Source of the DNA: Candidatus Eiseniibacteriota bacterium
GTDB lineage: Bacteria > Eisenbacteria > RBG-16-71-46
Assembly (NCBI GenBank): GCA_044223005.1
Contig: JBGAML010000009.1
Span: 32,001-96,000 of the forward strand
Direction: 5' to 3'
DNA length: 64,000 nt
Made by a program: the position numbers. Of this stretch, positions 18,101 to 21,100 are shown one piece after another. Position 1 is the stretch's first letter, and each line of letters begins with the position of its first letter.

Positions 18101-21100
18101 GCAGCCGGAGAAGGTGCTGTGCGAGACCTGCCACGCGGCGACGGCCAAGAAGCTGGACGGCAAGACCAAGCACGCGCCGTTCGCGTCGGGTGACTGCGGC
18201 AACTGCCACTCGCCGCACGGTTCGCCGCAGCCGCACCTGGTGAAGGCGAACGACGGCGCGCTGTGCCTGGGCTGCCATGGCGACATGCAGCGCGAGTTCG
18301 CGCGCGAACACGTGCACCCGGGCCCGAAGGAAGGCCGCTGCCTGAGCTGCCACGCGCCGCACGGCGGCGAGGGCAAGGGCATGCTGGCGCGTCCGCCGGC
18401 CGAGCTCTGCGGCGGCTGCCACGCGCCGATCGCCAAGCGCATCGCCTCGACGGGAGCGCACTCGGCCGCGAAGCAGGGCAAGTGCGAAGCGTGCCACGAG
18501 CCGCACGGCTCGAAGGCGAAGTCGCTGCTGCGCGGCACGACCAAGCAGCTCTGCGCGAGCTGCCATCCGGACGTCGGCCACGGCGACAAGGTGCACCAGC
18601 CGGTCGCGGACGGGGACTGCCTCACGTGCCACGACGCGCACGGCGGCCCGGCGGCTCCGGCGCTCGCCAAGGCGGTGCCGGCGCTGTGCACGGACTGCCA
18701 CGACGGGACGGCGTCGGACATGAAGTCGAAGCACCGCGGCAGCGACGTGTCGAACGCGAACTGCCTCGGCTGCCACTCCGCGCACGAATCGAAGTCGGCG
18801 GCGCTGCAGCCGGCGGTGGTGCATCCGGGATTCGCCGAGGGCAAGTGCGAGAAGTGCCATTCGGGCGCCTCGCCCTCCAAGGCGAACCTGCTCGCGCCGG
18901 GCGGCGCGCTGTGCGTGCGCTGCCACGACGTGTCCAAGGTGAAGACGGCGGGCGACCACATCCACGACCCGGTGAAGAAGCTGCAGTGCCTGACCTGCCA
19001 CGCGCCGCACGCGTCGGCCCAGCCGAAGCTGCTGGTGGCGAAGTCGGACCAGCTCTGCGCGTCCTGCCACAAGGAGACGTCGGGAGCGGGGCAGCGGAAG
19101 TTCCCGCACGCTCCGGTCGCGAACGGCGAGTGCAGCAAGTGCCACGAGCCGCATCGCGCGCCGGGCGGCGGCATCGCGCTGCTCAAGAAGCGTCCGGGCG
19201 AGATGTGCGGCGACTGCCACCAGGACCTGGCGAAGCGGATCGCGGCGGGCAACGCGCACGCGCCGGCGGCCCGTGGCCAGTGCCTGACCTGCCACGACAG
19301 CCACGGCTCTGACCTGCCGGGCATGACGCGCCGCCCGGGCAGCGCGCTCTGCGCGGCGTGCCACAAGCTCGACGATCCGAAGCTGACGGCGAAGCATCCG
19401 GGGATGTCGATGGCGACGGTCAACTGCATCAGCTGCCACGACCCGCACGCGCAGGACAAGACGAGCAAGGCGCTGCTCCGGCCGGCGATCCACCTGCCGT
19501 TCTCGCGCGGCGAATGCGAGTCCTGCCACACGTCGAAGGGCAGCGCGAAGCTGCAGGCGACGGGGGCGGAGCTCTGCGTGACCTGCCACGAATCGGGTGG
19601 CTGGAAGGGCCGCAAGTACACGCACCAGCCAGTGACGAACGGCCCGCAGTGCCTGAACTGCCACGCGCCCCACGGTGGCGTGGCGCGCCCGATCCTGAAG
19701 GCGGCGGGTGACGAACTCTGCTTCGGCTGCCACGACCGCGCGATGGTCGAGGGCAAGGTGAAGCACAAGGCGCTCGAGAAGGGCTGCGTGAGCTGCCACG
19801 ACGCGCACGGCTCGGCGGATCCGGGAATGCTGAAGGCGGCCTCGGTCGACGATCTCTGCCGCAAGTGCCACACGGACCTCGCGAAGCACTACCACAAGAC
19901 GTCGAGCGAACGCCTGGACCCGTCGGGCAAGCCGCTCCGCTGCACGAGCTGTCACAACCCGCACTCGGCGCCGTTCGACGCGCTCCTCAACCACGACGCG
20001 AAACGCGACCTCTGCGTCCAATGCCACGACCCGGCCCAGATGCCCGGCGGCAAGTGACCGCGACGCACTGACGTCCCGCAACGCACGACGGCCACCGTTC
20101 CCCGGAACGGTGGCCGTTTCGCGGCTCGGGAGGCTCACTGCTCGAGAACGTGACGTCGCTCTACTGCTCGAGAGCGTGACGTCGCACCGCCCCCCCCGGT
20201 CCGAGGCGGCCGGGGGACCGCTGAAGGGACCGCTCCTCGTCCGGCATCCTGCCGGACTCGTCACTAGGCGTCCGCATGCGACCGCCATCCCTGGCTCCTT
20301 CGCATGCTCCCGACTTCCCTTCATCGGCCCCCCGGCCGCCTCGGACCTGCCGCCCCACCACTTCACTGCGCATTGGCTGCAGGCTCTGGCGCGCGCGTCA
20401 TCGCAGCGATCGGGGCTCACCAGTGCGCATGCCGACCGCATCGTCGCACCTGTCGCGCGCTGTACCTCGGCGCATCAGCGAAGCGGCGGTGCTTGCCTGC
20501 AGCCGATTCCGAAGTGGGGGTGGGGACGCAGGTCCGAGGTGCCCGGGGGTCCGATGGAGGGAAGTCGGGAGCGAGCGAAGGAGCCAGGGATGGCGGTCGC
20601 TCGCGTACGCCTAGTGACGAGCACGGCAGGATGCCGTGCGAGGAGCGGTCCCTCCAGCGGACCCCCGGGCGCCTCGGACCGGGGGGCGGTGCGACGCCGC
20701 GCTCTCGGGTGGTTCTGAATCGAGGTGCGCCCTCAGCGAGAACATCAGCCCATGACCGCAAACGCAACGGGCCGCCTCGGTTGCGAGGCGGCCCGTCGAG
20801 GGTGTGCAGGAAGCTGCGTCAGGGCATGTAGGTCAGTTTCTGCGTTGCGATGCGGCCCTGGTGCTCGAGGCGGGTGAAGTAGAGGCCTGCCGGGACGAGG
20901 TGGCCCGTGTCGTCGCGGCCGTTCCAGGTGGACTCGTGCGGGCCCGGGGCGAACGGGCCGTCGGCCAGGGTGCGGATGCGGCGGCCGTCGAGGCCGAAGA
21001 TCGCCAGCTGCACGCGGCCGCCCTGCGTCCCGATCGAGAACGGGATCCGGATGCCGTCACCGCGGGCCGGGTTCGGTTCGCTCGTGCGCAGTGCGAACTC

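What a model noticed while it worked through the whole genome (the two positions that open the first line are those of the whole stretch)
20169..20708. Dispersed ~95-nt structured RNA motif with two conserved A(N)GGAU hairpin loops: candidate CsrA decoy, 15 copies
Fifteen copies of a ~95-nt core lie in ten places of the genome, each core holding two small hairpins whose loops are the invariant AGCC-AGGGAU-GGCG and GGC-AGGAU-GCC, closed by stems that differ between copies but stay complementary, and usually wrapped in a long copy-specific outer stem. I read it as a new structured RNA family that offers a paired binding site for a CsrA dimer (GGA in hairpin loops ~38 nt apart), a dispersed CsrA-titrating decoy in a phylum that has CsrA but no FliW and no known Csr sRNA; it also behaves as a mobile element that can sit in frame inside genes. 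If true it would be the first Csr/Rsm-type antagonist RNA outside Proteobacteria and a new kind of mobile RNA modu [...]
Evidence so far: Copies: C18:52218-52314(-), C18:52564-52660(+), C5:153230-153342(-), C5:153538-153634(+), C21:44739-44835(-), C23:514261-514355(-), C23:52616-52709(-), C23:52845-52939(+), C5:194922-195016(+), C13:34032-34125(-), C13:34303-34397(+), C13:38997-39070(-), C15:129882-129975(-), C23:144296-144390(+), C7:37995-38089(+). 29 invariant columns in 12 aligned copies. Covariance model R1 finds it in 32 of 151 sampled Eisenbacteria genomes (30 of 59 of the same family; up to 23 per genome). Stem test on 40 of 45 instances from 30 genomes (5 dropped: anchor motif not matched): own arms pair at -16.5 (P1) and -5.3 (P3) kcal/mol against -9.9 and -3.5 for arms swapped between copies; 0 of 2000 permutations r [...]
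(Added by a program. Inside this text positions count along the whole contig: contig position 32,001 is position 1 of the stretch shown here. "Call 12" and the like, gene names such as g00115 and contig names such as C1 are that model's own, and its searches are not shown. The text may have been shortened before it was handed on; [...] marks where a part breaks off. The agent that wrote the report below was given it as the finding of a first reader that could run no searches.)

Follow-up and report, generated by a model that had tools for sequence, protein, structure and literature searches.

The report
TwoAYGGAY-like palindromic repeat, head-to-head pair
The 540-base stretch is a back-to-back pair of a small, hairpin-shaped, non-coding repeat that is scattered through this genome and through several bacterial phyla; it is a diverged relative of an already described repeat/RNA family whose loops look like binding sites for the regulator CsrA, so it is real and neat but not a new kind of thing.

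Summary
Window 20169-20708 is a palindromic doublet of two ~170-nt units. Each unit has a long copy-specific closing stem and a three-way junction with two hairpins, whose loops read A(G/U)GGAU and AGGAU. My covariance model finds the unit in 74 of 89 genomes of the family, and at full length in Planctomycetota, Eremiobacterota, Acidobacteriota, Myxococcota and Marinobacter.

The family is not new. In Marinobacter, Rfam TwoAYGGAY (RF01731), Rfam Ysr224 (RF02770, the Yersinia YPAL/RU-2 repeat) and my model hit the same elements. Three things are already in print for TwoAYGGAY:
- CsrA binding, as a proposal (2015)
- very variable copy number
- divergent doublets and "mobile-element-like" spread (2026 preprint)

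This scan had also met such repeats on other DNA (e1-969531, e1-4558498 and others).

- A GC-rich branch that the Rfam models miss.
- A wobble-pair asymmetry showing that the GGA-loop strand is the one that folds.
- Orientation that is random relative to neighbouring genes.
- Doublets that are almost always 5'-to-5'.
- No link to the genome's single Y1 transposase gene.

Verdict: selfish structured repeat with CsrA-consensus loops. A dedicated CsrA decoy gene is unlikely, and CsrA binding remains untested.

The parts
20169..20708 (.). Whole palindromic doublet: unit(-), spacer, unit(+), with the 5' ends of the GGA-loop strands facing each other
   Evidence: Inverted repeats I1 (168 nt, 89%) and I4 (27 nt, 93%); covariance model R1 hits 20207-20340(-) at 91.5 bits and 20538-20671(+) at 93.7 bits
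20188..20359 (-). Left unit on the minus strand. Closing stem 20198-20229 / 20316-20347; P1 20274-20281 / 20300-20307; hairpin 1 stem 20284-20287 / 20292-20295 with loop AGGGAU 20287-20292; hairpin 2 stem 20239-20246 / 20250-20257 with loop AGGAU 20246-20250
   Evidence: Fold -116.9 kcal/mol and helix coordinates; I2
20360..20518 (.). Spacer between the two units. It holds the ~40-nt G-rich 5' tails of both units and a 13-nt inner inverted repeat (20372-20384 / 20495-20507). No sigma-70-like promoter was found.
20519..20690 (+). Right unit on the plus strand. Closing stem 20531-20562 / 20649-20680; P1 20571-20578 / 20597-20604; hairpin 1 stem 20583-20586 / 20591-20594 with loop AGGGAU 20586-20591; hairpin 2 stem 20621-20628 / 20632-20639 with loop AGGAU 20628-20632
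   Evidence: Fold -120.9 kcal/mol, z -9.0; coordinates; I3
20137..20185 (.). Tandem duplication (23 nt, 96%, 26-nt period) of the outer end of the left unit's 3' tail
   Evidence: D3
20074..20131 (+). Hairpin after the stop of the plus-strand gene (16908-20057). Terminator-like dyad next to which the doublet sits.
   Evidence: I5; ORF list. It did not pass the T-run terminator scan.
20767..20796 (-). Perfect 13-bp hairpin after the stop of the minus-strand gene (20819-23002). Second flanking dyad.
   Evidence: I7; ORF list

Best explanation
The stretch is a head-to-head (5'-to-5') doublet of a non-coding, non-autonomous palindromic repeat. The repeat belongs to a GC-rich, diverged branch of the TwoAYGGAY / YPAL (RU-2) superfamily, and the doublet is lodged in the dead space between two convergent genes, beyond their terminal hairpins.

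Shown:
- The unit is a long closing stem of free sequence around a three-way junction with two hairpins.
- The loops CA(N)GGAUG, a GNA/GGA internal loop under hairpin 1 and tandem G-A pairs under hairpin 2 are invariant, while all stems covary.
- The strand carrying the GGA loops is the one whose fold is kept.
- Copy number runs from 0 to more than 100 per genome across phyla.
- Orthologous sites are filled in some species and empty in others.
- Orientation ignores the neighbouring genes.
- Individual copies decay.

Inferred:
- The family persists by copying itself as selfish DNA through a single-stranded intermediate, DNA or RNA, of the GGA-loop strand.
- The invariant loops are the handle for a trans-acting dimeric factor, which is either an unidentified mobilising enzyme or CsrA.
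- This doublet has no dedicated regulatory role. If read-through transcription reaches a sense copy, the RNA would present a bivalent CsrA-type site as a by-product.
For: Anatomy and significance.

Stems: 88.2% of cells pair against 32-40% when slid, and 46 of 51 pairs change on both sides.

Strand-specific fold:
- The sense strand is the more stable in 25 of the 26 family members among 30 pattern loci.
- On the model alignment, G-U 110 against A-C 47; in the closing stem 57 against 15.
- With a strand-neutral arm alignment, 24 against 7 (17 units against 4, n=42 Eisenbacteria) and 24 against 8 (14 against 3, n=27 other phyla).

Mobile-like spread:
- 74 of 89 family genomes with 0-35 copies.
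- G055 has 34 copies and its family-mate G056 has none.
- 129, 53, 71, 18 and 8 copies in a Kuenenia-labelled MAG, a Pirellulales MAG, a Marinobacter, an Eremiobacterota MAG and an Acidiferrales MAG.
- Units sit at contig ends.
- The window's intergenic site is 118 nt and empty in G087.
- The C5:194.9-kb site is filled in G000 and G082 with unrelated closing stems, and empty in G091 and G086.

No recurrent neighbouring gene: at most 4 of 55 loci share a neighbour family.

Orientation, from crude GC3-based gene calls: single units between co-directional genes are 6 sense and 7 antisense; between convergent genes 5 and 5.

Doublets:
- In completely scanned loci, 12 are (-,+), 1 is (+,-) at 828 nt, and none are same-strand.
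- 8 more (-,+) and 3 same-strand pairs appear in partial listings.

Decayed copies: C5a has a 16-nt insert in loop 1 and C23_52a has a mutated loop 2.

Kinship to known families: in Marinobacter G209, RF01731 gives 20 matches at E<=0.01, one at 44.7 bits over the 43-bit cut-off. RF02770 gives 16 and my model 71. All 6 places listed in both coincide on the same strand. L259 is hit by all three models.

Literature: the Pseudomonas TwoAYGGAY elements show the same copy-number swings and 68.4% divergent doublets (10.64898/2026.09.22.753630, section 8 read).
Against: - No mobilising enzyme was found and no target-site duplication or terminal inverted repeat could be defined, so mobility is inferred from distribution only. 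No empty-site allele was seen in four metagenome runs.
- Conservation of two identical protein-site-like loops over several phyla, with variation only at the N of A(N)GGA, fits the CsrA consensus too well to dismiss as chance. CsrA was present in 83 of 89 family genomes and in 10 of 10 host genomes tested outside the family.
- The strand asymmetry fits an RNA as well as single-stranded DNA.
- Related copies inflate all counts.
- Gene calls behind the orientation test are crude.
Confidence: 0.68

Rival explanations
1. CsrA-site carrier. The selected function of the family is at the RNA level. Sense copies in transcripts bind one CsrA dimer across the two loops (~38 nt apart), so the repeat spreads CsrA control or collectively soaks up CsrA. 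That benefit, or exploitation of CsrA by the element, explains loop conservation across phyla.
For: - Loops match the CsrA site. CA(N)GGAUG is invariant and N is the only variable loop position.
- The Marinobacter second loop reads ACAAGGAUGU.
- Pirellulaceae variants carry three such hairpins in series.
- The sense strand is the folding strand.
- The CsrA here is canonical in sequence. CsrA is present in 83 of 89 family genomes and in 10 of 10 other hosts tested.
- FliW is not found in G000, which is 99.3% complete.
- The idea is in print for TwoAYGGAY (PMC4333381 passages; preprint discussion passage).
Against: - Orientation is random relative to genes, and there is no conserved promoter or terminator.
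- In 6 of 11 doublets between convergent genes, the gene-proximal unit is antisense, and a read-through RNA would pair the two units into a ~170-bp duplex instead of showing the loops.
- 15 of 89 family genomes, and 0 of 7 genomes of sister family f2, lack the element while keeping CsrA.
- CsrA is so common that co-occurrence says little.
- A model in PMC13443453 (passages read) predicts few hag-repressing CsrAs in Eisenbacteria.
Confidence: 0.22
2. Dedicated Csr/Rsm-type decoy sRNA genes. Each copy, or each doublet through a central bidirectional promoter, is an sRNA gene whose job is to titrate CsrA.
For: - All close doublets are divergent, which is what a shared central promoter would give.
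- GGA loops are present.
- One run labelled metatranscriptomic has contigs on 20138-20335, 20375-20406 joined to 20505-20572, and 20543-20641. The tool marks that run as probably DNA.
Against: - Some spacers are far too short for a promoter, for example 43 nt between model matches in L077.
- Spacers are unrelated in sequence and span 43 to 768 nt between model matches.
- No promoter-like or terminator-like site was found.
- The Pseudomonas upstream 5-6-mer array is not enriched here: 0.81 per 200 nt against 1.10-1.54 in controls.
- There are only two loop GGAs per unit.
- Copy number runs from 0 to more than 100, and copies decay.
Confidence: 0.04
3. REP/REPIN-like element mobilised by the genome's single-copy Y1 (IS200-like, RAYT-like) transposase, acting on the folded single strand.
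For: - One vertically inherited Y1_Tnp gene per genome in 81 of 89 family genomes.
- Its orthologue is confined to the order that holds most carriers: f1 80/88, f2 10/10, f3 2/3, and 0 of 104 in f4-f18.
- REP families also form head-to-head dimers and show compensatory stem changes (PMC3733652, sections read).
Against: - No unit lies within ~1.5 kb of the Y1 gene in 0 of 12 Eisenbacteria loci and 0 of 3 loci in other phyla.
- f2 has the gene and no units in 0 of 7 genomes.
- G055 has 34 units and no Y1_Tnp match at 99% completeness.
- 3 of 5 carrier genomes from other phyla lack it.
- The protein scores as IS200 (81.7 bits) and falls below the REP-transposase cut-off (45 against 80 bits).
Confidence: 0.04
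4. Host-selected 3'-end element. The GC-rich hairpins serve as bidirectional terminators or exonuclease blocks for the two convergent genes.
For: - 16 of 41 loci with both neighbours called are between convergent genes, including 6 of 11 doublets.
- In L008 the unit fills the whole gap between two stop codons.
- YPAL repeats are reported to be co-transcribed and possibly to affect upstream mRNA stability (Delihas review citing De Gregorio 2006, PMC2229807 passage; the primary paper is not held).
Against: - Here both genes already have their own terminal hairpins.
- No T-run follows the closing stem.
- A plain hairpin would not need an invariant branched core.
- 7 loci lie between divergent genes.
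Confidence: 0.08

Closest known systems
TwoAYGGAY RNA motif (Rfam RF01731; Weinberg et al. 2010, PMC2864571, table entry seen; Gardner & Eldai 2015, PMC4333381, passages; Li et al. 2026 preprint 10.64898/2026.09.22.753630, section 8 and discussion passage)
   Same: - Two hairpins on a common basal stem with A(N)GGAU terminal loops.
- Tandem G-A pairs in a stem.
- Many copies with large swings between related genomes.
- Frequent divergent doublets.
- Proposed CsrA/Rsm binding and 'mobile-element-like' expansion.
- My model, built only from Eisenbacteria, hits the Marinobacter elements that RF01731 hits, on the same strand.
   Different: - RF01731 finds nothing in the window at E<=10, and nothing in G000, G206, G207 or G212 at E<=0.01.
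- Loop 1 is AGGGAU in 38 of 70 sequences, where G is not Y. Loop 2 is one base shorter (AGGAU).
- Hairpin 1 sits on an extra stem (P1).
- GC content is about 72%.
- The hosts are Eisenbacteria, Planctomycetota, Eremiobacterota, Acidobacteriota and Myxococcota, against the Gammaproteobacteria, Clostridiales/Bacillota and gut metagenomes named in the texts I read.
- The Pseudomonas 5' short-repeat array is not present here.
YPAL / RU-2 miniature insertion sequence of Yersinia (De Gregorio et al. 2006, not held; Delihas 2007/2008, PMC2759123 and PMC2229807, passages and Table 1b read; Rfam RF02770 Ysr224)
   Same: - ~168-bp non-coding palindromic repeat, not AT-rich.
- Long closing stem.
- The printed RU-2 sequence holds two inner hairpins with loops AAGGAU and AUGGAU (read by eye).
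- Reported to insert next to dyad symmetries and to differ between filled and empty sites in close species.
- RF02770 hits Marinobacter, a gammaproteobacterial MAG and a Myxococcota MAG many times below threshold (16, 19 and 65 matches at E<=1). These are the same elements my model hits, on the opposite strand.
   Different: - RF02770 does not hit the G000 units. Its one hit, at E 0.68, lies elsewhere.
- No target-site duplication was found here.
- No reading frame is kept.
- There is no sequence similarity outside the loops.
REP / BIME / REPIN elements (GTAG- and CGTC-tagged palindromes; Di Nocera et al. 2013, PMC3733652, abstract and sections 6 and 14 read)
   Same: - Dispersed extragenic palindromes, mostly after genes and between convergent or co-directional genes.
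- Preferred head-to-head dimers with variable spacers.
- CGTC REPs also lack a dedicated transposase.
   Different: - REPs are 20-40 bp with 8-9-bp stems and a conserved tetranucleotide tag.
- Here the unit is 130-200 nt with a 25-45-bp free-sequence stem and a conserved branched core.
- The Y1 gene is not flanked by units.
CsrB/CsrC/RsmX/Y/Z sponge sRNAs
   Same: GGA in hairpin loops that fit the CsrA consensus. Some relatives in Pirellulaceae carry three such hairpins in series.
   Different: - Two loop sites per unit, against the 13-22 cited for CsrB/C in the abstract of PMC6546359.
- No own promoter or terminator was found.
- Not a fixed locus.
- Long perfect closing stem.
- Multi-copy and patchy.

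Membership tests
TwoAYGGAY (RF01731) | [quoted passage not shown] | tested here: met
   Single-sequence folds; consensus structure with 51 pairs, 88.2% paired
TwoAYGGAY (RF01731) | Each terminal loop has the consensus AYGGAY | tested here: inconclusive
   Loop 1 is A-N-GGAU with N = G in 38, U in 20 and gap in 7 of 70 sequences. Only the U form is AYGGAY. Loop 2 is AGGAU, one base short.
TwoAYGGAY (RF01731) | Score at or above the Rfam gathering threshold (43 bits) | tested here: not met
   No RF01731 match in window 20180-20700 at E<=10. 0 matches in G000 at E<=0.01. 1 of 20 relatives' loci matched (L155, 23.1 bits). Marinobacter intermediates score 32-44.7 bits.
TwoAYGGAY (RF01731) | Tandem G-A pairs in a stem (reported in PMC4333381) | tested here: met
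   Conserved AGYGNA ... GA-RCG at the foot of hairpin 2 and GNA/GGA under hairpin 1
TwoAYGGAY (RF01731) | Multi-copy, with enrichment of divergent doublets (preprint, Pseudomonas) | tested here: met
   0-35 copies per genome in the family. 12 (-,+) against 1 (+,-) doublets in fully scanned loci.
YPAL / RU-2 (RF02770 Ysr224) | Match to the Rfam model (70 bits) | tested here: not met
   G000: one hit at E 0.68, not on a unit. Best relative is Marinobacter at 41.7 bits.
YPAL / RU-2 (RF02770 Ysr224) | Variable target-site duplications of 3-26 bp (Delihas review) | tested here: not met
   No direct repeat flanks the closing stem in 57 units. Only A at -1 (33 of 57) and G at +1 (34 of 57) recur. The 23-nt duplication at 20137-20185 is tandem at one end, not flanking.
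YPAL / RU-2 (RF02770 Ysr224) | Insertion at or next to dyad symmetries; filled and empty sites between close species | tested here: met
   The doublet lies between hairpins 20074-20131 and 20767-20796. The site is empty in G087, and empty in G091 and G086 at another locus.
REP / REPIN with RAYT | 20-40-bp palindrome with a GTAG or CGTC tag | tested here: not met
   The unit is 130-200 nt. GAC(G) follows the stem in only a minority of units (4 of 57 GACG).
REP / REPIN with RAYT | Y1 (RAYT) gene flanked by the repeats and co-occurring with them | tested here: not met
   0 of 12 and 0 of 3 Y1 loci carry a unit. G055 has 34 units and no Y1. f2 has Y1 in 10 of 10 genomes and units in 0 of 7.
Csr/Rsm sponge sRNA | Many GGA sites in loops or single-stranded stretches of one transcript | tested here: not met
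   Two loop GGAs per unit
Csr/Rsm sponge sRNA | Own promoter and intrinsic terminator; discrete transcript | tested here: inconclusive
   None found by consensus scan and no conserved flank. Promoter types of this phylum are unknown, and no RNA run was available.
Csr/Rsm sponge sRNA | Binds CsrA and relieves its targets | not testable with these tools
   No protein-RNA tool is on hand. Only the motif fit and the presence of CsrA could be checked.

The most novel reading that the evidence does not exclude
TwoAYGGAY, YPAL/RU-2 and this GC-rich branch are one ancient, cross-phylum mobile module whose invariant part is a bivalent CsrA site. The kept fold of the GGA-loop strand would then reflect RNA-level binding of a CsrA dimer. 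Bursts and losses of copies would shift the pool of free CsrA and place new genes under CsrA control. That would amount to a distributed, evolvable sponge standing in for FliW or CsrB-type antagonists in lineages that lack them.
Probability: 0.15. Interest if true: 0.75.

Novelty: new member of a known kind. Interest (0 to 1): 0.4.

Why it matters
- **Annotation.** Rfam's TwoAYGGAY and Ysr224 models miss a large GC-rich branch of the family. Copy numbers found here are 16 in this genome, up to 35 in its family, and 129, 53 and 18 in single Planctomycetota and Eremiobacterota genomes. These repeats break assemblies and create spurious long ORFs.
- **Unifying two literatures.** The same Marinobacter elements are hit by the model of an "RNA motif" (TwoAYGGAY) and, on the other strand, by the model of an sRNA that earlier notes of this scan (unchecked here) tie to a Yersinia "miniature insertion sequence" (YPAL). 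The two literatures may therefore describe one superfamily. I did not find that link stated in the texts I could read. The preprint's supplements and Weinberg's Additional file 2 were not seen.
- **The CsrA question.** The CsrA-binding proposal is 11 years old and still untested. The strand asymmetry and the N-only loop variation reported here sharpen it, and they name cheap tests in harmless culturable hosts.

Tried and rejected
**Expression**
- No RNA holder is listed among 22 runs.
- Four runs were laid, all as contigs. The run labelled metatranscriptomic (X20, marked 'probably DNA') has no cover on 19300-20069 or 20686-21070. It carries one 'opposite strands' joint, 20375 to 20505.
- I draw nothing from parts without cover.
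- No contig skips the element in any run.

**Mobilising enzyme and neighbours**
- The Y1/RAYT link is rejected.
- Clustering of neighbouring genes gives no recurrent partner.

**Replication-strand bias.** GC skew is too weak and noisy in this genome.

**Ends, promoters and motifs**
- No target-site duplication or end motif was found beyond A/G at the stem foot. TCGA before the stem occurs in a minority only.
- The promoter/terminator scan found nothing.
- The Pseudomonas 5' GMTBT motif is not enriched.

**Other collections**
- Viral contigs: 0 matches.
- Plasmids: no match to the Marinobacter unit.

**Rfam**
- At E<=1 on 3 kb the only hit was a chance BjrC68 match.
- On 20 loci at E<=0.1 the only hit was a microRNA model. 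These calls missed the TwoAYGGAY link, which appeared only on a short stretch of a Marinobacter locus.

**Ideas dropped by eye**
- A hammerhead-like or kink-turn reading of the junction: the conserved letters do not fit.
- A GNRA-tetraloop reading of loop 1: the AUGGAU variant is not GNRA.

**Other**
- The wobble asymmetry in other phyla was weak on the model-fitted alignment (35 against 25) but clear with the strand-neutral method.
- One search was an empty script.
- De Gregorio 2006 (PMC1636318) is not held.
- Complex prediction, structure prediction and protein homology searches were not used, because no protein question arose that they could settle.

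
Full report
**1. What is in the window**

Positions 20169-20708 form one large palindrome. 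Arms 20192-20359 and 20519-20686 are 168 nt long and 89% complementary, with 159 nt between them. Each arm holds its own 32-nt inverted repeat (94%) around an 86-nt core. A further 27-nt inverted repeat (93%) closes the whole at 20169-20195 / 20681-20707.

Taken as single strands, each arm folds into a 31-33-bp closing stem and a three-way junction.
- One branch is a stem (P1) topped by hairpin 1, GCC-AGGGAU-GGC.
- The other branch is hairpin 2, with loop AGGAU.

The right unit folds at -120.9 kcal/mol, against -81.95 +/- 4.31 for 200 shuffles. Its complement folds at -109.2 kcal/mol.

The doublet lies between the stop of a plus-strand gene (16908-20057) and the stop of a minus-strand gene (20819-23002). 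Each gene has its own hairpin, at 20074-20131 and 20767-20796. At the left end, the last 23 nt of the unit's tail are duplicated in tandem (20137-20185).

**2. The family in this genome**

A profile search finds 17 copies in 13 places, two of them cut by contig ends. Three subfamilies differ throughout their stems but share the loops, the purine-rich internal loops and, in this genome, G-rich tails outside the closing stem.

Some copies are decayed. C5a has a 16-nt insert in loop 1, and C23_52a has lost loop 2.

The two copies said to lie inside ORFs overlap only the first ~40 codons of the longest possible frames. Those stretches are Arg/Gly/Pro-rich and lie upstream of plausible internal starts. 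I read these copies as lying in front of the genes, not in them.

**3. The structure is kept, on one strand**

I built a covariance model (R1: 129 positions, 51 pairs) from 34 Eisenbacteria copies. On 70 distinct matches:
- 88.2% of cells pair, against 31.6-39.6% when partners are slid by 1-3 columns.
- 46 of 51 pairs change on both sides.
- No shuffle of 500 reaches the observed values. The alignment is fitted to the model, which flatters these numbers.

Loop conservation is extreme. In loop 1 only the second letter varies: G 38, U 20 and gap 7 of 70. Part of the set was found with a pattern that demands these loops, so that figure is biased upward.

The strand test is more informative.
- The GGA-loop strand is the more stable in 25 of the 26 family members among 30 pattern loci.
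- In the stems, G-U pairs outnumber A-C mismatches (which would be G-U on the other strand) by 110 to 47. In the closing stem the count is 57 to 15.
- Because a covariance model favours G-U, I repeated the count on the closing stem with a strand-neutral alignment of one arm against the complement of the other. This gave 24 to 7 in Eisenbacteria (17 units against 4, n=42) and 24 to 8 in other phyla (14 against 3, n=27).

So the fold of one strand, as RNA or as single-stranded DNA, is what selection sees.

**4. Distribution**

R1 finds the unit in 74 of 89 genomes of the family (36 of 44 high-quality genomes, 25 of 28 genera). Matches per genome run from 0 to 35, with only 38 candidates scored per genome, and 583 matches in all.

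Outside the family:
- Units occur in 2 of 3 genomes of sister family f3, and in 0 of 7 genomes of f2 (the f2 tallies include the unpublished genome G073).
- In family f14, G055 has 34 copies and G056 has none.

They come from Planctomycetota (Kuenenia-labelled, Pirellulales, Planctomycetia), Eremiobacterota, Acidobacteriota, Myxococcota, Marinobacter and others, beside a few chance hits in coding DNA. R1 gave 72 matches at E<=0.01 across these 80 loci, with full-length scores of 70-95 bits in Eremiobacterota and Planctomycetota.

|---|---|
| Kuenenia-labelled MAG (G206) | 129 |
| Marinobacter (G209) | 71 |
| Pirellulales MAG (G208) | 53 |
| Eremiobacterota MAG (G207) | 18 |
| Acidiferrales MAG (G210) | 8 |

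Two Myxococcota MAGs hold 120 and 77 copies of the 12-letter loop-1 word, against 0-1 for the reversed control. None was found in viral contigs.

**5. Behaviour like a mobile element**

- The window's intergenic site is 118 nt and lacks the doublet in G087, whose flanking genes are 76% identical.
- At C5:194.9 kb the unit fills the gap between two stop codons in G000. G082 has a unit there with an unrelated closing stem. G091 (83% gene identity) and G086 have short empty gaps.
- No neighbouring gene family recurs: at most 4 of 55 loci share one.
- With crude GC3-based gene calls, single units between co-directional genes are sense 6 times and antisense 7 times. Between convergent genes the split is 5 and 5.
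- 16 of 41 loci with both neighbours called are convergent.
- No target duplication or terminal repeat could be defined. Only an A before the closing stem (33 of 57) and a G after it (34 of 57) recur.

**6. Doublets**

In loci scanned completely, 12 close pairs are (-,+), meaning the 5' ends of the GGA strands face each other. One pair is (+,-) at 828 nt, and none is same-strand. Partial genome listings add 8 (-,+) pairs and 3 same-strand pairs.

Spacers run from 43 to 768 nt between model matches, and one spacer holds an ordinary cytochrome c gene.

Between convergent genes this arrangement puts the antisense copy next to each gene. A read-through RNA would also pair the two units into a long duplex. 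Both points speak against a role as a 3'-UTR display of GGA loops.

**7. Partner proteins**

*CsrA.* It is present, with a canonical sequence, at C21:77980-78138, with a second copy on C8. No FliW match was found in this genome, which is 99.3% complete. CsrA occurs in 83 of 89 family genomes, including those without the repeat, and in 10 of 10 carrier genomes tested elsewhere. Co-occurrence therefore neither supports nor refutes a link.

*The Y1 (IS200-like) gene.* A single Y1 gene sits directly after lexA in 11 of 11 loci examined. It is vertically inherited within one order: f1 80/88, f2 10/10, f3 2/3, and 0 of 104 elsewhere. Four results go against a link to the repeat:
- No unit flanks it, in 0 of 12 and 0 of 3 loci.
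- f2 has the gene without the repeat.
- G055 has 34 repeats without the gene.
- 3 of 5 carriers in other phyla lack it.

I reject it as the mobilising enzyme.

**8. What it is called elsewhere**

Notes of this scan on other genomes pointed to YPAL/RU-2 of Yersinia. Checking that lead gave the following.
- The RU-2 sequence printed in Delihas 2007 has a long stem and two inner hairpins with loops AAGGAU and AUGGAU (read by eye).
- Rfam's Ysr224 model (RF02770) hits Marinobacter 16 times (best 41.7 bits), a gammaproteobacterial MAG 19 times and a Myxococcota MAG 65 times at E<=1. It does not hit the G000 units.
- On a short stretch of one Marinobacter locus, Rfam also reports TwoAYGGAY (RF01731) on the GGA strand at 37.7 bits, and Ysr224 on the opposite strand. 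R1 hits the same element at 41.8 bits.
- Genome-wide in that Marinobacter, RF01731 gives 20 matches at E<=0.01, one above its 43-bit cut-off. All 6 places listed in both coincide with R1 hits on the same strand.
- RF01731 finds nothing in G000, G206, G207 or G212, and nothing in the window at E<=10.

The Eisenbacteria elements are therefore relatives of TwoAYGGAY/YPAL that the curated models do not reach. Membership by Rfam's own threshold is not met. Likeness of architecture, loops, tandem G-A pairs, copy-number behaviour and doublets is met.

**9. What is in print**

- TwoAYGGAY was listed in 2010 for gut metagenomes, Gammaproteobacteria and Clostridiales (PMC2864571, table entry).
- Gardner and Eldai proposed in 2015 that its two loops bind CsrA, and they mention tandem G-A pairs (PMC4333381, passages).
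- A September 2026 preprint reports 16,086 matches in 1,148 of 1,324 Pseudomonas strains. It reports medians of 11-23 and up to 202 copies, doublets of which 68.4% are divergent (median 249 bp apart), variants with extra AYGGAY hairpins, possible multivalent Csr/Rsm sponges and a mobile-element-like expansion (10.64898/2026.09.22.753630, section 8 and a discussion passage). Its supplements are closed and may already list further phyla.
- Its upstream 5-6-mer array is not enriched here.
- My searches for the YPAL-TwoAYGGAY link, or for these phyla, found nothing.

**10. Verdict**

Both are already attached to a known family, and the 'dedicated decoy' version fits this locus poorly.

Most likely (0.68) this is a selfish, structure-dependent repeat that copies itself through a single-stranded form of the GGA-loop strand. 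The loop-binding factor, CsrA or an unknown enzyme, remains open.

New here:
- the GC-rich multi-phylum branch;
- the strand asymmetry;
- the near-exclusive 5'-to-5' doublets;
- the exclusion of the Y1 gene.

Noticed in passing
L003 (G000:C31:1-2058), 154-666(-) and 758-1309(-): A single-copy IS200-like Y1 transposase gene lies about 100 nt downstream of lexA on the same strand. The pair is conserved in 11 of 11 loci from several genera. The gene is vertically inherited within one order: f1 80/88, f2 10/10, f3 2/3, and 0 of 104 elsewhere. This looks like a domesticated HUH nuclease that may be SOS-controlled. It is unrelated to the repeat.
   Followed up: partly
window 20137-20185: A 23-nt tandem duplication (96%, 26-nt period) of the outer tail of the left unit. 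It contains GACGTC and CTCGAG palindromes, and its origin is unexplained.
   Followed up: no
window ~20865-21020 (3' end of the minus-strand gene 20819-23002): About 150 nt at the C-terminal end of this gene match dozens of places in every genome of the genus at 66-80% identity. This suggests a widely shared C-terminal domain, possibly a secretion sorting domain. I did not test that.
   Followed up: no
L204, L162, L205 (Pirellulaceae-type records): Relatives in which hairpin 1 is followed by two further GGC-A(U)GGAU-GCC hairpins in series, with 11-13 GGA per 290 nt. They look closer to a multivalent sponge than the window's unit does.
   Followed up: partly
G207:C2 (Eremiobacterota MAG, 2.5-Mb contig): All 17 listed units on this contig lie between 1.15 and 2.33 Mb, and none lies in the first 1.1 Mb. 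The clustering is unexplained.
   Followed up: no
L127 (G082:C7), next to the unit orthologous to C5:194.9 kb: Three tandem copies of a ~40-nt motif lie directly upstream of the unit and share sequence with its closing stem.
   Followed up: no
window 20276-20277 and 20304-20305: One metagenome contig (run X7) carries AT-to-GC changes at both arms of stem P1 of the left unit, four substitutions that keep pairing. This could be gene conversion from a paralogue or a paralogous copy laid on this locus.
   Followed up: no
G155:C265:42743-42901 and 43320-43447: In one family genome a unit lies about 420 nt downstream of csrA on the opposite strand. It is a single case and probably coincidence.
   Followed up: no
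L259 (G209:C11), 1468-1599: Rfam holds two families, TwoAYGGAY RF01731 and Ysr224 RF02770, that match opposite strands of the same Marinobacter element.
   Followed up: partly
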